This document shows positions 49,103-53,469 of a stretch of DNA of 64,000 bases, in pieces. Under the pieces are notes generated by a model. The model was not told the DNA's origin. It searched no databases and saw only the letters and a list, made by a program, of their open reading frames with translations. Made by a program: the position numbers and the translations under genes. The stretch comes from a bacterium (lineage in GTDB: Bacteria; Patescibacteriota; Minisyncoccia; Moranbacterales; UBA2206): assembly GCA_043725085.1 (NCBI GenBank), contig JAYSLY010000014.1, positions 2,748 through 66,747 on the forward strand. Direction: 5' to 3'. Within the stretch, counting starts at the first letter, position 1. Each line of letters opens with the position of its first letter.

Positions 49103-50680
49103 TTATATGTTTGTTTTTATTTTTTTATTTTTCACAAAATACACCACACATATTATGATAGCATACCAAACCACCATGCCTTGCCACGAAAGGCCGACCT
49201 CCAGCGCGGCATATTTCAAACTTGCTGCGTAGTTGATGACATCTACCTCATAGCGTAAAGGCAAATAGGTTAGCCAGGAAAAAACAATGGCGAGCGGCCA
49301 AAAAAGAAAACTGATTGCTACCGCCAAAAATCCCAAAAGCATTGTGAGCGGTAAAATTGGCAAAACCAAAACATTCGTCAGCGGAGAGATGAGTGAAAGT
49401 TTTTGAAAATTAAAAAGAATAATCGGCAACACAAAAACTTGCGCGCTCAGTGACATAAACAGAATTTCCGCAATGAAAGAAAAAACGGCCGGATATTTTT
49501 TCAACTTTTCACCAAAATATTTTTCGAACAGCGGATAGAAATAGACAATGCCGATTGTCGCCAGAAATGACAGCTGAAATCCGACGTCATAGCGAAGAAG
49601 GAGCGGATTCCAAAAAAGCATCACGGCGGCGGCAAAAATAATTGCATTTTGGGCATTAGCCAGCCTTCCATTTTTCATTGCATAAAGGAGCAGCGTGCCC
49701 ATCACACCGGCGCGAATGGCTGAAGCGGGAAAACCGGTCATTAAAATAAAAATCCAAATGCCCAAAAGCGCAAACCAAAACGCTTGCCGACGCCAGAGAC
49801 CCAAAAACAATCCCAAGAGCATCAAATATTCCGCCACAATCGTGATGTTATACCCTGACACTGCCACAATATGCGTCATGCCGGTACGTGAAAAATTATC
49901 TTGAATACTTTTAGAAAGCTTATCATCCCCGCCAATAATCAAGCCTTCCAAAAGTCCCGCTTCCGGCGCGGGAATGAGCAATGAAATCTTGGCGCTGAAT
50001 TTGTTTTTCAAACTAATCACTGCGCCATAAAAAATATTTCCCAAATTTTTTCGTCCGCCAGCCGGCGGATTTTCAATTTGCGGTTTTTGGCAAAGATAGA
50101 AAATATCATCTCGCGCCAAATAGGCCACGTAGTCAAAATCCGAGTCTTCTCTGTTTTTTGGTTTGGTTAAGTTGCAAGTCAACTTCAACTCCTCGCCATA
50201 GGCATAACTTTCATAGATACTTTCTTGAATGAGCACGTTGTAGTTTTCACCTTCGGGAGCAAAGATGATTTCTTGCACTTTTTCCTTGATTTTCGGTTCG
50301 CGTGCAATCATCCCTTGTCCGGAAAAATCAATTTCCTCTGGCGCGCTCTCGAATGAATTTATTTTATCGATTTTTTTCTGAGTCAGATGAAAGCCAAAAA
50401 CAAACATAATGAGCGCGCCGCAAATCAGCATCACCATTTTATTTTTATAGAAAACAAAAAGAGCGCTAAGCGTAAAAAGCAAAAGTATATATGAAAATGC
50501 CGTGCCAAAAATAGCGGGATAGAAAAATGAAGCGCAAAAAACTCCAAAAATAAAACTCAAAGAAAACAGCAAAAATATTTTCGCTTTGGTCATTTTTGAC
50601 ATGAGTTTATTATAGCAGAAATTATCCAGACCCCTAAAAACAGCTATACTTGACTTTGCATACCAATGCATCTTATCCAA
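49103..50680 (-). CDS. comEC: ComEC N-terminal OB (DUF4131) + competence membrane domain (5' fragment of a frameshifted comEC)
   Basis: It contains the competence-domain motif (TGMTHIVAVSGYNITIV). It ends ...FVKNKKIKTNI* inside the A-rich run AAAAATAAAAAAATAAAAAC, and a +1-nt change there joins it to the downstream MBL frame. Confidence 0.7.
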   Translation of the reverse strand: MDKMHWYAKSSIAVFRGLDNFCYNKLMSKMTKAKIFLLFSLSFIFGVFCASFFYPAIFGTAFSYILLLFTLSALFVFYKNKMVMLICGALIMFVFGFHLTQKKIDKINSFESAPEEIDFSGQGMIAREPKIKEKVQEIIFAPEGENYNVLIQESIYESYAYGEELKLTCNLTKPKNREDSDFDYVAYLARDDIFYLCQKPQIENPPAGGRKNLGNIFYGAVISLKNKFSAKISLLIPAPEAGLLEGLIIGGDDKLSKSIQDNFSRTGMTHIVAVSGYNITIVAEYLMLLGLFLGLWRRQAFWFALLGIWIFILMTGFPASAIRAGVMGTLLLYAMKNGRLANAQNAIIFAAAVMLFWNPLLLRYDVGFQLSFLATIGIVYFYPLFEKYFGEKLKKYPAVFSFIAEILFMSLSAQVFVLPIILFNFQKLSLISPLTNVLVLPILPLTMLLGFLAVAISFLFWPLAIVFSWLTYLPLRYEVDVINYAASLKYAALEVGLSWQGMVVWYAIIICVVYFVKNKKIKTNI

Positions 50681-51671
50681 AATGATCCGTCTCCTTCAAC
50701 TTCTGCTGCAACTTCTTCCCATTTCCATGTCGCAACATTCCCAAATACGAAGTCAACCTTCCTGGATCGTAATTTCTTCGCATCTTTTTTATCATTCTTC
50801 TTTTGGTACTTGTCCTCAACACCCTGTGATCAGAAAAATTTACCCAACCCAGAAAATCCACACCAGAAGAAAAAGTTTTGATAAAAACTTTACTAGGATG
50901 CAGTTTTAATTTCAGTTTAGTTTCCAAAAAATCGGATATTTCAGGAATTAAACTCTCCAAATGGTTTTTATCTTCTGACAAAATCACAAAATCATCCGCG
51001 TAACGGATATAGTATTTGACTTTCAATTTATGTTTCATAAACTGATCGAATTTGTTCATGTAAATATTGACGAATAATTGCGAAGTTAAATTGCCCAGTG
51101 GCAATCCGACATTCGTCTTTCCTGGAGTTGCAAAACTTTCAATCACATTTTTCAAAAGCCAGATGATGTTTTCGTCCGGAACATGTTCGGCTAAAATGTT
51201 TTTGAGTATTTGATGATCAATATTGGCAAAGAATTTTCTGATGTCGCATTCCAGAATCCAGCAAGTTTTCGTATTATTTTGACTGACTTTCTGAAAATAT
51301 TTTCTAAACTTGTTAATTGCTTTATGTGTGCCTTTATTATTCCGGCAGGAATATGAATCAGCGATAAAAGTCTTGTCGAAAAAGGGATAGAGTTTTCGAT
51401 AGATGGCATGATGAAGGAGTCTGTCTTTAATGCAAGCTTTGTGGATGTCTCTCGGTTTGGGATCGTTGATTTTGAAAGCTTGATAGCTGCCGTGTTTGTA
51501 GGTATGATGAAGAAGCTCGTGGTGCAGTGAAAAGATGTTGTCCATGAGACAAAGAGAAAATTCCTGGACATCATATTTCTTCCTTTTGCCGTTTTGGAAT
51601 TCTTTCCAGGCCAAAAGTAAGTTTTCCAGGCTAATAATATCTTCAAAACTATGAGTCAGTTGAATTTTCAT
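50673..51671 (-). CDS. diversity-generating retroelement (DGR) reverse transcriptase
   Basis: The 332-aa ORF has RT motifs 1-7, with YIRYADDFVIL in motif 5. Motif 4 reads GLPLGNLTSQLFVNIYMN, the DGR-diagnostic (I/L)GNLTSQ form. There is no maturase or endonuclease domain. Confidence 0.85.
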   Translation of the reverse strand: MKIQLTHSFEDIISLENLLLAWKEFQNGKRKKYDVQEFSLCLMDNIFSLHHELLHHTYKHGSYQAFKINDPKPRDIHKACIKDRLLHHAIYRKLYPFFDKTFIADSYSCRNNKGTHKAINKFRKYFQKVSQNNTKTCWILECDIRKFFANIDHQILKNILAEHVPDENIIWLLKNVIESFATPGKTNVGLPLGNLTSQLFVNIYMNKFDQFMKHKLKVKYYIRYADDFVILSEDKNHLESLIPEISDFLETKLKLKLHPSKVFIKTFSSGVDFLGWVNFSDHRVLRTSTKRRMIKKMRRNYDPGRLTSYLGMLRHGNGKKLQQKLKETDHFG

Positions 51672-51744
51672 AGCAAAAATTTTAATCCGTTAACGCCCCC
51701 CCCCAAGACTTCCGCAGGTTTTTGAAAAAGTAAAATCGCTCTAT

Positions 51745-52080
51745 TTGGCTTGGTATGAATATTATCAGATTTTACCAACCACCCATCGATATACTCTGGG
51801 ACAAAAAATCGATAAATACTTTACGGAAATTATTGAATCGATTGCCATTGCTGCTTTTCTGAAACCGGAAGAAAAAATACCGTATGTCCGGTTGGCTATT
51901 CGCAAATCCGATGTTTTGAAAATTTTTCTGAATATTCTTTGGGAAACAAAATCTTTGGATGACAAGAAATATATTTTGCTTTCGGATAAATTAAATTCTG
52001 TCGGTCGCGATCTTGGTGGCTGGAGTGGAAGCCTTACAAAGAAAAACTCTCCCGATTCAAAACAGGGAGAGCGAAAATGA
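51745..52080 (+). CDS. avd: Avd-like accessory variability determinant (four-helix-bundle protein), TTG start
   Basis: The 111-aa ORF is basic and helical, and its C-terminus (VGRDLGGWSGSLTKKN) resembles Bordetella phage Avd (VGRILGSWIARVNRKG). It lies between the RT and TR but on the opposite strand. Confidence 0.55.
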   Translation: MAWYEYYQILPTTHRYTLGQKIDKYFTEIIESIAIAAFLKPEEKIPYVRLAIRKSDVLKIFLNILWETKSLDDKKYILLSDKLNSVGRDLGGWSGSLTKKNSPDSKQGERK

Positions 52081-52089
52081 AAATAGTTT

Positions 52090-52211
52090 CGGGGCGACGA
52101 ACGCAAACCCATCGTCATCGTTCCACCTGTTGTCAGGCCTGTCATACGCAGTGTTCAACCACCGACCATCATCGTTGCGGTTGGCGTTGAGCAGGTTCGG
52201 ATCGCCGTCAG
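52090..52211 (-). repeat. DGR template repeat (TR) including IMH*-like 3' end
   Basis: It aligns to 52577..52699. All 15 mismatches over 101 aligned nt are TR adenines (minus-strand sense) opposite non-A bases in VR. The GC-rich end reads TTTGCGTTCGTCGCCCCG. Confidence 0.85.
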
Positions 52212-52475
52212 TTTTGCGCGATATGCCTTCCTTGCCACTGCCCGTTGAATACTCTCCGGGCTGAATCGAATTCCGCATCTTAAATGCGCTAGCATACCAC
52301 ACCAAGTATCTTCATTTTTTTGAAGTTTCTGCATACGCCACTTTATCCGAAACCGTGATCGCGGATAATCTCGACGTATGGATACTGGATTCGGAAGCGG
52401 GAAACCTACCTACCGGCAGGCAGGCGTGATCGCCCGCATTCTTCCCTACTACCTTTTTTATTTTACCAAATTTAA

Positions 52476-52521
52476 GAGCCTTGTGCGAGAATTCAACACA
52501 AGGCTCCGTTTTTAATTTTTT
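52476..52521. terminator. strong hairpin with T-run between TR and VR (terminator-like, plus-strand sense)
   Basis: A perfect 10-bp stem GAGCCTTGTG...CACAAGGCTC with an 11-nt loop is followed by CGTTTTTAATTTTTT on the plus strand; the minus-strand side is weaker (TTAAATTTGG). Confidence 0.45.
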
Positions 52522-52522
52522 A

Positions 52523-52563
52523 GGACTGAGTTTTTGAGGACTAGTCCTCAGTAGCTGAGTCCT
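52523..52563 (-). promoter_or_regulatory. hairpin/cruciform immediately 3' of VR/IMH (DGR homing-associated structure)
   Basis: A perfect 14-bp palindrome GAGGACTAGTCCTC (52536..52549) overlaps the target stop codon and is nested within AGGACT...AGTCCT arms. Confidence 0.6.
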
Positions 52564-53216
52564 GAGCACTGACTTGCGGGGCGACGAACGCAAAACCCAA
52601 CGTCACCGCACCACCTGTAGTCAGGCCTGTCAAACGCAGAGTCCAACCACCGACCACCATCGCGGCGGTAGGCGCTGAGCAGGCGCGGATCGCCGTCAGA
52701 ATCTTTGATGGGCTCGTGCATTACCACGACCCACCAGAGACCCATCGCTTCGATTTCCTCATCCGCGAATTTCTCCCGGATAAGACAGGCTACTTCGGCA
52801 TTCGGCTTCTCGAGCTTCCGCTCATCGGCTTCGGCGCGAATGTTCTTGGTAATGCGATCGCTATCTTTCCACAGATTGCCCTTGAGGACAATGATGTGGT
52901 AGGACACTCCATTCGTCGGCTTGAAGTCTCCCGACATAAGGACGCTCTTCGCGTAATCACCGACTCTGAAACCCTTCTTCTCGAGTCTTTTGATCCACTC
53001 GAGTCCGGTCGTTCCGTCGGAAGTCATGATACCGAGATCGATCACGCCGTCTTGTTCCTTCCATGAGCGCACGACTTCAGAAACGATCCATTCTTTGGAA
53101 TTGATCCTGCGAACAGCTTCGTTCGCGTCGGCGATTCCCATCTGACTCATGATGGTTTTCACCATCGCATTGAGTTTTCCCGGCATAACTTCCGCAATTG
53201 CAAATCCGTCTGACAT
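52548..53216 (-). CDS. DGR target protein with C-terminal variable region (minimal C-type-lectin-like VR)
   Basis: The 222-aa ORF ends in the VR-encoded tail ...GDPRLLSAYRRDGGRWLDSAFDRPDYRWCGDVGFCVRRP. The TR translation is GDPNLLNANRNDDGRWLNTAYDRPDNRWNDDDGFAFVAP, with AAY(Asn) codons at the variable sites. No signal peptide is evident. Confidence 0.75.
   Translation of the reverse strand: MSDGFAIAEVMPGKLNAMVKTIMSQMGIADANEAVRRINSKEWIVSEVVRSWKEQDGVIDLGIMTSDGTTGLEWIKRLEKKGFRVGDYAKSVLMSGDFKPTNGVSYHIIVLKGNLWKDSDRITKNIRAEADERKLEKPNAEVACLIREKFADEEIEAMGLWWVVVMHEPIKDSDGDPRLLSAYRRDGGRWLDSAFDRPDYRWCGDVGFCVRRPASQCSGLSY
52577..52699 (-). repeat. DGR variable repeat (VR) with IMH at 3' end
   Basis: See the TR entry for the alignment. 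The IMH reads TTTTGCGTTCGTCGCCCCG in minus sense and differs from the TR copy by one T. Confidence 0.85.
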
Positions 53217-53469
53217 AATAACCTCCTTGCGCTAAGTCGCGCAGTTTTATTTTCCTCTTATCCGAGGAAGGAGCCATGTCCACCCATTTGGTCATAGCCA
53301 AGAAATGCCATTCTATGGAATTTTTTGGCTACGACCAATGCAAGTCAATTAAAAAGAGCTTTCCGAAACTGAATAAGTAAGTATACACTAAATCGCTGTT
53401 TTGTCAATGTTTTCACAATTAAATGGCTAGAACAAGCCATTTTTAGAACAATTTAGGTAAATTCTTGCG

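What the first reader, a model, noticed from the sequence alone, without database searches (positions are those of the whole stretch)
52548..53216. Unusually small, apparently cytoplasmic DGR target with a minimal CLec-type VR
The target is 222 aa with no recognisable signal peptide or TM segment. Its N-terminal ~170 aa match no family I recognise. The VR occupies the last ~40 codons and ends ...RDGGRW...GFCVRRP, reminiscent of the RGGSW...GFRCAR end of C-type-lectin-fold VRs. The target stop codon lies inside the 14-bp palindrome of the downstream hairpin, so the homing-associated structure overlaps the coding end. The function of the diversified ligand-binding surface in a small non-secreted protein is open.
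Basis: inference. Interest (0 to 1): 0.55.

Follow-up and report, generated by a model that had tools for sequence, protein, structure and literature searches.

The report
Leaderless DGR target, frameshifted tail
This 222-residue gene is the real hypermutation target of a complete retroelement in a Patescibacteria (CPR) genome, but it is an ordinary-sized member of a very large unannotated protein family, its "lectin-like" end motif comes from a one-base frameshift, and a C-type-lectin fold could not be confirmed.

Summary
ORF 52548-53216(-) ends in a 123-nt VR (52577-52699) matching a TR (52089-52211). All 15 substitutions lie at TR adenines. A convergent avd, a DGR-type RT and a post-VR hairpin that contains the stop codon complete the cassette.

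Three points of the interpretation need correction.
1. The VR has one extra T (TTTT 52592-52595; TR has TTT). The tail "GFCVRRP..." is therefore out of frame. The TR and every compared homolog read GFAFV(A/V)(P/S)QVS.
2. The protein is not unusually small. It belongs to a Patescibacteria family of 2,423 clusters at 50% identity, mostly 205-240 aa, with no Pfam, NCBIfam, PHROG, PADLOC or PDB sequence match.
3. The CLec fold is unproven. AlphaFold gives a confident model (pLDDT 91), but Foldseek finds nothing significant. The best weak hits are C-type lectins (TM 0.26-0.41), and HHalign against Mtd is null.

No signal peptide or TM segment is present, and the start codon is secure. About 5% of the divergent relatives checked replace the variable N-terminal ~45 residues with a Sec, lipoprotein or membrane-anchor signal, so the core is not inherently cytoplasmic.

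Leaderless CPR DGR targets are already documented, so this is a new member of a known kind.

Found in passing: strongly covarying structured RNAs 5' of the TR and in the target's 5' UTR.

The parts
52548..53216 (-). DGR target gene, 222 aa as it stands. Residues 1-47 are a variable two-helix N-terminal module, residues ~48-216 are the conserved family core, and the last 14 residues are out of frame.
52577..52699 (-). Variable repeat (VR), codons 173-214. Twelve codons differ from the TR.
52592..52595 (-). TTTT run. It has one T more than the TR (TTT) and than every relative (GGNTTYGC). It shifts the frame after Gly207-Phe208.
   Evidence: The same 222-aa product is encoded on a Logan contig.
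52577..52591 (-). GC-rich IMH-like block GCGTTCGTCGCCCCG, identical in VR and TR. VR and TR diverge immediately 3' of it.
52522..52563 (-). Composite hairpin 3' of the VR. The outer stem is AGGACTcAG/CTcAGTCCT and the inner palindrome is TGAGGA-CTAG-TCCTCA (52550-52535). It contains the actual TGA stop (52550-52548) and the family-frame TAG (52543-52541).
   Evidence: Relatives have covarying stems at the same offset.
52470..52507 (-). Intrinsic-terminator-like hairpin of the target gene, GAGCCTTGTG...CACAAGGCTC, followed by TTAAATTT.
52212..52454 (-). Conserved structured RNA leader immediately 5' of the TR. It is preceded by an extended -10-like box, TGGTAAAAT (52468-52460).
52089..52211 (-). 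Template repeat (TR). It has 28 A's, 7 AAC codons and 20 A-containing codons.
52041..52072 (-). Hairpin GCTCTCCC...GGGAGAGT plus a T-run, starting 17 nt after the TR. It is the likely 3' end of the TR RNA and lies antisense within the 3' end of avd.
51745..52080 (+). avd accessory gene, 111 aa, convergent with the TR.
   Evidence: PF22296, E 4e-7; NF033474, E 8e-12. Both scores are below the curated cut-offs.
50673..51671 (-). DGR reverse transcriptase, 332 aa, with LGNLTSQ at residue 192 and YADD at residue 224.
53217..53351 (-). Conserved structured 5' UTR of the target gene, with three hairpins. The last hairpin abuts the SD. A promoter-like site, TTGACA-16-TATACT, lies at 53407-53380.

Best explanation
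The region is a complete DGR cassette of the Patescibacteria (CPR) type, in the order target, TR, avd (reversed), RT.

How the retroelement works:
- A discrete non-coding RNA is transcribed. It consists of an extended -10 box, a ~240-nt structured leader, the 123-nt TR and a terminator hairpin.
- RT and Avd copy the TR into cDNA and misincorporate opposite adenines.
- The cDNA replaces the VR. The identical GC-rich block and the hairpin just beyond it guide this step.
- These steps are inferred from the A-only mismatch pattern here and from the Bordetella phage BPP-1 mechanism.

What the target is:
- It is a leaderless, soluble, single-domain protein of a very large unannotated family.
- It has a conserved ~170-residue alpha/beta core, residues ~48-216.
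- The last three beta-strands and their loops carry 12-20 hypervariable positions on an invariant scaffold (L179, L180, R184, G188, W190, L191, P198, W202, G207, F208). That allows about 6e15 variants.
- The core is preceded by a variable ~45-residue N-terminal module. Here that module is two helices.
- The most likely role is a diversified ligand-binding module that stays in the cytoplasm in this lineage. This is inferred, at about 0.6 probability.
- The same core is exported or membrane-anchored in a minority of relatives.

The frameshift:
- The allele in this window carries a +1 T insertion that replaces the conserved last strand and tail (AFVAPQVSAQDSATED) with CVRRPASQCSGLSY.
- It probably arose at or after the last homing event.
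- The next homing event should erase it if, as in BPP-1, transfer runs into the GC-rich block.
For: DGR signature:
- 15 of 15 substitutions lie at TR adenines (P about 5e-12).
- The RT has an RVT_1 domain with LGNLTSQ and YADD.
- Avd matches Avd models.
- The IMH-like block occurs only at the VR and the TR.

Family:
- 1,936 hits at E<=1e-3 in the indexed search.
- 2,423 clusters at 50% identity.
- 258 loci among GTDB species genomes. The 80 listed are mostly named Patescibacteria-group MAGs, and the remaining titles are generic 'uncultured' labels.

Cassette layout and remote copies:
- The same target-TR-avd-RT layout occurs in 33-37 of 80 loci, and A-biased TR/VR pairs in about 41.
- Copies without a DGR keep the IMH and hairpin.
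- One such copy matches a remote TR on the same contig with 20 A-to-N and 4 other differences.

Hypervariability:
- Family-wide entropy peaks at the AAC codons (3.0-3.6 bits) against 0.65 for the VR scaffold.

No export signal:
-.

Frameshift:
-. The same product is encoded on a Logan contig.

Structure:
- pLDDT 91.4, pTM 0.79, with secondary-structure order beta-alpha-alpha-(alpha)-beta-beta-beta-beta from residue 102.

TR RNA:
- 58 base pairs, 43 with compensatory changes. 96.9% of cells are paired against 37-48% in slid controls.
- A terminator hairpin follows the TR in the TR-bearing loci examined.
Against: - No read-level data were available, so neither current DGR activity nor the reality of the fourth T in the population is shown.
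- Localisation rests on simple hydropathy rules only. CPR bacteria may export proteins by routes that leave no recognisable signal.
- The ligand and cellular role are unknown. No conserved neighbour genes exist apart from DGR parts.
- The frameshifted allele may be non-functional.
- The assignment of the leader as part of the TR transcript rests on a -10-like box and on conservation, not on transcript data.
Confidence: 0.72

Rival explanations
1. First reader's view. The C-terminal ~120 residues form a minimal but genuine C-type-lectin (CLec/FGE-like) fold, like Mtd or TvpA. The protein would then be a standard CLec variable protein that happens to be short and cytoplasmic.
For: - The secondary-structure order from residue 102 is beta, alpha, alpha, then four beta-strands, as in CTLDs.
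- CTLD proteins recur among the best, non-significant Foldseek hits: NKR-P1, MCL, CD94, Clr-11, rhodocetin, mannose-receptor CRD-4, poxvirus C-type lectin and UL45.
- The VR scaffold pattern (W...P...W...GF at the C-terminus, variable residues at AAC codons) resembles CLec VRs.
- Roux et al. expect new CLec variants among CPR targets (PMC8144416).
Against: - No Foldseek hit has E below 0.1, and TM-scores are 0.26-0.41 with rmsd 6-10 A, despite a confident model.
- No DGR variable protein appears in the top 50. FGE appears once, at E 4.5 and TMq 0.13, although Mtd is in the PDB sequence copy.
- None of 114 close members at E<=1 and none of 149 divergent members at E<=0.01 matches FGE-sulfatase, DUF1566 or Lectin_C.
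- HHalign against Mtd gives probability 0.07.
- The conserved unit starts at residue ~48, not ~100.
Confidence: 0.4
2. The ~170-residue core is a previously undescribed fold that tolerates DGR hypervariation. It would be a further scaffold beside CLec and Ig.
For: - The model is high-confidence but has no significant structural neighbour in the PDB or BFVD.
- No profile match exists anywhere.
- Wu et al. left six CPR VR classes (UVR1-6) unassigned to any fold (PMC5758913).
Against: - The weak hits are not random. They are enriched for CTLDs.
- Foldseek 3Di searches can miss divergent CLec variants.
- Model coordinates could not be inspected here.
Confidence: 0.27
3. The gene in this genome is a decaying or inactive allele. 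The frameshift destroys the conserved last beta-strand (GFAFV), so the protein is non-functional.
For: - F210 is at least 90% conserved and A209 is the majority residue (102 of 114). Here they are V and C, followed by two arginines.
- Other relatives also show tail lesions: L038 has a premature stop, L076 a frameshift and L020 a decayed VR.
Against: - There are zero non-adenine substitutions over 123 nt, and the IMH, hairpin, TR, avd and RT are intact. That argues for a recently active element.
- Only the last 14 residues change.
- AlphaFold still models residues 206-211 as a strand.
- Frameshifting TR/VR indels are seen in 11 of 372 DGRs (PMC5758913).
Confidence: 0.3
4. The extra T is a sequencing or assembly error. 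The true gene ends GFAFVAPQVSAQDSATED-TAG.
For: - The insertion lies in a homopolymer.
- The corrected reading matches the nearest relatives almost exactly (P0002 ...GFAFVAPQVSTQDSESQV).
Against: - The identical 222-aa product is called on a separately assembled Logan contig, which is reported from 2 samples.
- A 3-to-4 T run is not a typical Illumina error site.
Confidence: 0.15
5. The protein is exported without a classical signal and acts at the cell surface, as an episymbiont adhesin. This is what is usually proposed for CPR DGR targets.
For: - The same core carries Sec signals or lipoboxes (P0162, P0201, P0220, P0230, P0263) or an N-terminal membrane anchor (P0225, P0135) in divergent relatives.
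- The N-terminal two-helix module is well conserved within the subfamily and could be a docking or export element.
Against: - The window protein and the 113 close homologs of A2 have no signal-like or TM-like N-terminus.
- No secretion-system genes are linked.
Confidence: 0.25

Closest known systems
CPR/Patescibacteria DGRs. These are 'RT clade 2' of Roux et al. 2021 (PMC8144416) and the 'CPR set' with B3 architecture and unclassified VR classes UVR1-6 of Wu et al. 2018 (PMC5758913). They were first surveyed by Paul et al. 2017 (not readable here).
   Same: - Patescibacteria host.
- The cassette holds target, TR, avd and RT, with avd reversed.
- The target has no TM segment, signal peptide or known domain.
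- The VR is C-terminal and rich in AAC codons.
- Some genomes have multiple or remote targets.
   Different: - No difference in kind was found.
- I could not check whether this exact family equals one of UVR1-6, because the supplementary data are not held.
- I did not read the paper's definition of B3, so the assignment to that architecture is by likelihood only. The paper says B3 covers 90% of the CPR set.
- The conserved 5' leader of the TR and the structured 5' UTR of the target are not mentioned in the papers I could read.
Bordetella phage BPP-1 DGR (mtd-avd-TR-brt)
   Same: - Adenine-specific TR-to-VR transfer.
- A GC-rich IMH-like block at the VR 3' end.
- A hairpin just downstream, with the stop codon drawn in the hairpin figures (PMC3240598).
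- Avd plus RT.
   Different: - Mtd is a 381-aa phage tail-fibre protein with a proven CLec fold, and there is no profile similarity to it.
- avd here is convergent and lies downstream of the TR.
- The conserved structured RNA lies 5' of the TR, rather than in a TR-RT spacer (RT-10 motif, PMC5737381).
- The hairpin stem is shorter and less GC-rich. Its loops, CTAG or TTCA, do not fit GRNA.
TvpA (Treponema denticola) and LdtA (Legionella): cellular DGR targets with lipoprotein signals and FGE-type or DUF1566-type CLec domains
   Same: - A cellular, non-phage target with a C-terminal VR.
- A minority of relatives of the present family also carry lipoprotein signals.
   Different: - The window protein has no signal.
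- There is no FGE-sulfatase or DUF1566 match in the 263 family members scanned against Pfam.
Predicted cytoplasmic DGR targets of multicellular bacteria (STAND or MoxR-associated CLec sensors; Doré et al. 2024, PMC10907252), and the CLec plus AAA-ATPase targets that the same paper cites as commonest in CPR
   Same: Predicted cytoplasmic location of a DGR-diversified binding domain.
   Different: - There is no NTPase, effector or other signalling domain.
- There are no linked conflict-system genes.
- It is a stand-alone ~220-aa protein.

Membership tests
Diversity-generating retroelement (DGR) | TR/VR repeat pair whose differences are confined to adenines of the TR | tested here: met
   15 of 15 substitutions are TR-A to VR-N over 123 nt, plus one 1-nt indel. 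P is about 5e-12.
Diversity-generating retroelement (DGR) | Adjacent reverse transcriptase with the DGR-type motif-4 signature [LIV]GxxxSQ and a YxDD motif | tested here: met
   RVT_1 at E 4.6e-26. LGNLTSQ at residue 192 and YADD at residue 224. That this signature is DGR-specific is from my own knowledge.
Diversity-generating retroelement (DGR) | Avd accessory protein | tested here: met
   PF22296 bAvd at E 4e-7. NF033474 DivGenRetAVD at E 8e-12. Both are below the curated cut-offs, but the gene is conserved next to the TR in 37 related loci.
Diversity-generating retroelement (DGR) | IMH-like GC-rich end of the VR, followed by an inverted repeat that is absent after the TR | tested here: met
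   GCGTTCGTCGCCCCG is shared by VR and TR, and they diverge after it. The palindrome lies 26 nt downstream of the VR only. Relatives have covarying stems at a fixed offset.
Diversity-generating retroelement (DGR) | Ongoing diversification (VR heterogeneity within a population) | not testable with these tools
   No reads were available. Indirect support only: family-wide entropy peaks at AAC codons.
C-type-lectin-fold DGR variable proteins (Mtd, TvpA/FGE-sulfatase, DUF1566 types) | Sequence or profile match to FGE-sulfatase, DUF1566, Lectin_C or Mtd | tested here: not met
   Pfam finds nothing for the window protein, for 114 close homologs at E<=1 or for 149 divergent members at E<=0.01. HHalign against Mtd gives probability 0.07. 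The PDB profile search finds nothing.
C-type-lectin-fold DGR variable proteins (Mtd, TvpA/FGE-sulfatase, DUF1566 types) | Three-dimensional similarity to a CLec/CTLD structure | tested here: inconclusive
   The model has pLDDT 91.4. The best CTLD hits reach TM 0.26-0.41 at E 0.27-5, and no DGR variable protein appears in the top 50.
C-type-lectin-fold DGR variable proteins (Mtd, TvpA/FGE-sulfatase, DUF1566 types) | Secondary-structure order beta-alpha-alpha-beta-beta-beta-beta, with the first and last strands paired | tested here: inconclusive
   The order is present (E102-112, H123-132, H141-149, H152-157, E162-165, E177-183, E190-195, E206-211). Strand pairing could not be inspected because no coordinates are returned.
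C-type-lectin-fold DGR variable proteins (Mtd, TvpA/FGE-sulfatase, DUF1566 types) | C-terminal VR with variable residues interleaved with an invariant scaffold | tested here: met
   Entropy is 3.0-3.6 bits at AAC codons against 0.65 at non-A codons. L180 and G207 are invariant.
CPR-type DGR cassette (Wu et al. CPR set; Roux et al. clade 2) | Patescibacteria host; cassette of target, TR, avd and RT; target without TM segment or known domain | tested here: met
   Layout. Related loci are mostly named Patescibacteria-group MAGs. No TM segment or domain. RT phylogenetic placement in clade 2 was not computed, and the B3 definition was not read.
Secreted or lipoprotein DGR targets (TvpA, LdtA type) | N-terminal Sec or lipoprotein signal | tested here: not met
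   No signal-like region in the window protein or its 113 close homologs. A signal or anchor is present in 7 of the ~150 divergent family representatives checked.

The most novel reading that the evidence does not exclude
The ~170-residue core (residues ~48-216) is a new, non-CLec, non-Ig scaffold for DGR hypervariation. It is used mostly as a leaderless cytoplasmic binder across Patescibacteria. It is served by a DGR whose RT/Avd-recruiting RNA domain lies 5' of the template. That layout resembles a retron msr-msd arrangement more than the BPP-1 TR-spacer arrangement.
Probability: 0.2. Interest if true: 0.72.

Novelty: new member of a known kind. Interest (0 to 1): 0.4.

Why it matters
Roux et al. 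2021 state that it is still unsettled whether CPR DGR targets are genuinely non-membrane-bound. This family is a convenient test case for four reasons:
- It is abundant.
- It is small and predicted soluble.
- It is confidently modelled.
- It exists in leaderless, Sec, lipoprotein and membrane-anchored versions of one core.

Solving one structure would settle whether CLec really is the near-universal DGR scaffold.

The cassette also shows that this DGR clade has dedicated, strongly covarying RNA domains. One lies 5' of the TR and one lies in the target's 5' UTR. I did not find these described in the papers I read, and they are absent from Rfam. They bear on how cDNA priming and termination work when avd lies convergent right after the TR.

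For annotation, the practical lesson is that VR tails should be checked against the TR frame before motifs are read from them.

Tried and rejected
Searches that found nothing for the target:
- Pfam, NCBIfam, PHROGs and PADLOC.
- PDB sequence and profile searches. Only chance-level hits appeared, such as lysostaphin, a superantigen and an Ig-like repeat protein.

Structure searches:
- Foldseek of the full model against the PDB and BFVD, and of the C-terminal domain model against the PDB, gave no significant match.
- HHalign against BPP-1 Mtd was null.

Other leads that led nowhere:
- An upstream alternative start or fused domain is excluded by an in-frame stop 6 codons upstream and by a conserved structured UTR.
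- There is no second VR or paralog in the window.
- There are no conserved partner genes around family members. Flanks are unrelated housekeeping genes.
- Rfam had no relevant hit for any non-coding element of the cassette. Weak U4 and snoR12 matches fall below the gathering scores and were treated as chance.
- Paul et al. 2017 could not be read, and the Wu et al. supplementary files are not held.

Ideas considered but not supported:
- A papain-like or NlpC-type Cys-His enzyme, prompted by the near-invariant C144 and H167. No structural hit of that kind appeared, and I could not inspect coordinates.
- Programmed +1 frameshifting at UUU-U. Nothing supports it beyond the homopolymer.
Full report
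**1. What is in the sequence**

- On the minus strand, ORF 52548-53216 encodes 222 aa.
- Its last ~41 codons (52577-52699) repeat at 52089-52211. The two copies have 15 substitutions, and every one is an A in the downstream copy.
- The downstream copy has 28 A's in 123 nt. The chance that all 15 substitutions fall on A's is about 5e-12. So 52089-52211 is a TR and 52577-52699 is its VR.
- Twelve codons differ. Seven TR codons are AAC and 20 contain A, which allows roughly 6e15 protein variants.
- Downstream of the TR lies a convergent 111-aa Avd homolog, 51745-52080(+), with bAvd at E 4e-7 and DivGenRetAVD at E 8e-12.
- Next is a 332-aa RT, 50673-51671(-), with an RVT_1 domain, LGNLTSQ and YADD.
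- The 15-nt GC-rich block GCGTTCGTCGCCCCG ends both repeats and occurs nowhere else in the window.
- 26 nt beyond the VR lies the palindrome TGAGGA-CTAG-TCCTCA (52550-52535), nested in a longer hairpin (52563-52522). The 181-nt stretch folded as DNA, which also contains the terminator hairpin, scores z = -3.6 against shuffles.
- A terminator-like hairpin follows (52507-52470).

**2. The tail is out of frame**

- The VR reads GGGTTTTGCG where the TR reads GGGTTTGCG. The extra T (52592-52595) shifts the frame right after Gly207-Phe208.
- The product ends GFCVRRPASQCSGLSY-TGA. The TR frame gives GFAFVAP.
- All 22 homologs aligned in full end GFAFV(V/A)(P/S)QVS.... A209 and F210 hold in 102 and 110 of 114 sequences.
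- Among the 3' ends of related loci that were read, only this window and its Logan twin have the extra T.
- Without it the ORF would read GFAFVAPQVSAQDSATED and stop at TAG 52543-52541, in the hairpin loop. Its closest subgroup does exactly this (L052, L053, L059; P0002 ends ...GFAFVAPQVSTQDSESQV).
- The 'GFCVRRP ~ GFRCAR' resemblance is therefore an accident of the frameshift.
- The same 222-aa product is called on a separately assembled Logan contig seen in two samples. I therefore favour a real insertion over an assembly error, but only reads can decide.
- Frameshifting TR/VR indels are known in 11 of 372 catalogued DGRs (PMC5758913).
- By analogy with BPP-1, the transfer boundary lies inside the GC-rich IMH segment (PMC3240598). 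On that basis the T-run would be overwritten at the next homing event. This step is an inference.

**3. Size, start and localisation**

- The start is secure. AAGGAGG lies 5 nt upstream and an in-frame TAG lies six codons upstream. The upstream region is a conserved structured UTR rather than coding sequence.
- The maximum 19-residue hydropathy is 0.93, and there is no uncharged hydrophobic N-terminal stretch. The 113 close homologs of alignment A2 behave the same way.
- The size is not unusual. The indexed search returns 1,936 relatives, nearly all 212-224 aa. The exhaustive search finds 2,423 clusters at 50% identity, 829 of them below E 1e-30.
- A scan of one genome per GTDB species finds 258 loci. 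The 80 listed are mostly named Patescibacteria-group MAGs (Falkow-, Vogel-, Uhr-, Nomura-, Wolfe-, Lipton-, Taylor-, Moranbacteria and others). The remaining titles are generic 'uncultured' labels.
- In divergent relatives the match begins near profile position 48. The N-terminal ~45 residues are replaced by unrelated segments.
- In 7 of about 150 representatives that segment is one of the following:
  - a Sec signal (P0201, P0230);
  - a lipoprotein signal (P0162 LAGC, P0220 FGSC, P0263 FSGC);
  - a membrane anchor (P0225, P0135).
- So the conserved unit is a ~170-residue core (48-216) with an exchangeable N-terminal module that seems to set localisation. This subfamily is leaderless, but the core clearly also functions outside the cell in other lineages.

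**4. Fold**

- With a 114-sequence alignment, AlphaFold2 gives mean pLDDT 91.4 and pTM 0.79.
- The elements are H12-26, H31-39, E53-55, E58-67, H71-80, H87-93, E102-112, H123-132, H141-149, H152-157, E162-165, E177-183, E190-195, E206-211.
- Variable residues fall on the last three strands and their connecting loops.
- From residue 102 the order beta, alpha, alpha, then four strands is the order found in C-type lectin-like domains.
- CTLD proteins recur among the top Foldseek hits, but all are non-significant:
  - full model against the PDB: NKR-P1 at TMt 0.41, MCL, CD94, Clr-11; best E overall 1.3;
  - full model against BFVD: a poxvirus C-type lectin at E 0.11;
  - residues 96-222 modelled alone (pLDDT 81): rhodocetin at E 0.27 and TM 0.38, mannose-receptor CRD-4 at TM 0.39.
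- No DGR variable protein appears in the top 50, although Mtd is in the PDB sequence copy. FGE appears once, at E 4.5.
- None of 263 family members hits FGE-sulfatase, DUF1566 or Lectin_C. HHalign against Mtd gives probability 0.07.
- I therefore cannot file the protein as a CLec variable protein. A very divergent CLec-like topology and a new fold both remain possible. I put them at about 0.4 and 0.27.

**5. Evidence that the family as a whole is DGR-diversified**

- Across 114 homologs, entropy is 3.0-3.6 bits at the seven AAC positions. It is 0.65 at VR codons without A and 0.93 in the core. L180 and G207 are invariant, and L179, R184, G188, W190, L191, P198, W202, F208 and F210 are nearly so.
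- Of the 80 loci, about 41 have an A-biased TR within 900 nt, and 33-37 have the same TR, avd (reversed), RT arrangement.
- About 27 loci with full flanks have no DGR nearby but keep the conserved GGNTTYGCNTTCG...TCGCAA end and the downstream hairpin.
- In Falkowbacteria GW2011_GWF2_43_32, three copies lie on one contig. The TR next to L011 matches the VR of the distant copy L022 with 20 A-to-N and 4 other differences. These look like remote targets.
- The post-VR hairpin sits at a fixed offset, 48-50 nt after the GF codons, with covarying stems: GGGACT/AGTCCC, AGAACT/AGTTCT, AGGATTT/AAATCCT, AGGAAT/ATTCCT, GCGCT/AGCGC, and here TGAGGAC/GTCCTCA.
- In most loci the stop codon is 10 nt 5' of the hairpin. 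Only the window's subgroup runs the coding tail into the hairpin. The overlap is therefore incidental. The BPP-1 hairpin figures likewise mark the mtd stop codon (PMC3240598).
- No gene other than the DGR parts is conserved next to family members. The target has no defence-system or phage-family matches.

**6. How it most likely works**

- Shown by sequence: a complete DGR with an A-only mismatch signature, and a hypervariable, scaffolded C-terminal surface on a compact, soluble, leaderless protein.
- Inferred from BPP-1 biochemistry: RT-Avd copies the TR RNA with adenine misincorporation, and the cDNA replaces the VR up to the GC-rich block, helped by the hairpin.
- Inferred from family comparison: the core is a ligand-binding module, and its location is set by the N-terminal module. 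Here it most probably acts in the cytoplasm (about 0.6).
- Cytoplasmic DGR targets are not unprecedented (PMC10907252).
- CPR targets without TM segments or known domains have been reported repeatedly, with the explicit caveat that their localisation is unresolved (PMC8144416; PMC5758913).
- Verdict: a new member of a known kind, of moderate interest.

**7. Things found on the way that may be more novel than the target**

(a) *A structured RNA 5' of the TR.*
- The ~240 nt between the target's terminator and the TR (52212-52454) are conserved in 34 aligned loci. They start just after an extended -10-like box.
- RNAalifold gives 58 base pairs in three domains, 43 with compensatory double changes.
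- 96.9% of cells are paired, against 84.5% in shuffles (0 of 500 reach it) and 37-48% when partners are slid.
- The third domain is closed by a 12-bp stem whose 3' strand ends a few nucleotides before the TR.
- In the TR-bearing loci examined, the TR is followed after ~15 nt by a hairpin plus T-run that lies antisense in the end of avd (52072-52041).
- The TR therefore seems to be carried on a discrete ~430-nt RNA whose large structured domain is 5' of the template. In BPP-1 the known RNA elements lie in the TR-RT spacer and in a short upstream segment (PMC5737381; Handa et al. preprint, which examined only 40 nt upstream of TRs).
- Rfam 15 has no match.
- I suggest that the 12-bp stem plays the 'stop duplex' role and that the leader recruits RT-Avd. 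Both are hypotheses.

(b) *A structured 5' UTR.* The target's 5' UTR (53217-53351) is also conserved, with 25 pairs, 19 of them compensatory. Its last hairpin abuts the SD. It occurs in DGR-linked and DGR-less copies alike.

(c) *A GC-rich island.* The target gene is 54% GC with GC3 0.64, against 39.5% for the window, 36% for the RT and 37% for avd. In all 62 loci tested it is GC-richer than its flank, by a median of 11.6 points. I have no explanation.

Noticed in passing
window 52212-52454 (-), with a -10-like box TGGTAAAAT at 52468-52460: A ~240-nt conserved, strongly covarying structured RNA lies immediately 5' of the TR. It has 58 pairs, 43 with compensatory changes. 96.9% of cells are paired, against 37-48% in slid controls. 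It forms three domains, the last closed by a 12-bp stem that ends just before the TR. It has no Rfam match and is not described in the DGR papers I could read. It is possibly the RT/Avd-binding and cDNA-stop domain of this DGR clade, placed 5' of the template rather than 3'.
   Followed up: partly
window 52041-52072 (-), inside the 3' end of avd (51745-52080, +): A hairpin GCTCTCCC...GGGAGAGT plus a T-run starts 17 nt after the TR. It is conserved, with covarying distal stem pairs, in the TR-bearing loci examined. It is the likely terminator and 3' end of the TR RNA. On the other strand it encodes the Avd C-terminal tail.
   Followed up: partly
window 53217-53351 (-); promoter-like TTGACA-16-TATACT at 53407-53380: The target gene's 5' UTR is a conserved structured element. 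It has a 17-bp hairpin, then CCTC-GGATTA-GAGG, then GCGC-AAATTA-GCGC directly before the SD. Of 25 pairs, 19 show compensatory changes across 39 loci. It is present upstream of both DGR-linked and DGR-less family members. It has no Rfam match and its function is unknown.
   Followed up: partly
window 52548-53216 compared with its surroundings; loci L002-L081: The target gene is a GC-rich island. It is 54% GC with GC3 0.64, against 39.5% for the window, 36% for the RT and 37% for avd. In all 62 related loci tested the target is GC-richer than its upstream flank, by a median of 11.6 points. This is unexplained.
   Followed up: partly
window 52405-52425 (-); also L057, L023, L042, L022: A short palindrome, GCCTGCCTGCCGGTAGGTAGG, is inserted in the loop of the first leader hairpin. 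Near-identical GCCTGCCTGCCGGCAGGCAGG-type palindromes sit at different positions in other loci. This suggests a small mobile or repetitive palindromic element in these genomes.
   Followed up: no
relatives P0162, P0201, P0220, P0230, P0263, P0225, P0135; loci L084, L086: Divergent family members carry Sec or lipoprotein signals or an N-terminal membrane anchor in place of the two-helix N-terminal module. The two members whose contigs were fetched have no adjacent RT or avd.
   Followed up: partly
L011, L020, L022 (Falkowbacteria GW2011_GWF2_43_32, contig LCGL01000001.1); P0007: Three family copies lie on one contig, and only one has a DGR. The TR matches the distant L022 VR with 20 A-to-N and 4 other differences, so L022 looks like a remote target. 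L020 looks decayed (13 A-to-N and 12 other differences, early stop). P0007 (385 aa) is a tandem fusion of two family cores.
   Followed up: partly
window protein residues E141, C144, R147, H167 (codons within 52716-52796): C144 lies near the start of helix 141-149, and H167 lies just after strand 162-165. Both are at least 90% conserved across 149 divergent family representatives, together with E141 and R147. They could be structural or could form a functional or metal-binding site next to the variable sheet. This was not tested.
   Followed up: no
window 51596-51710 (-): A weak Rfam match to U4 snRNA (25.7 bits against a gathering score of 46; E 0.004) spans the avd-RT intergenic region and the RT start. 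I treated it as chance.
   Followed up: no
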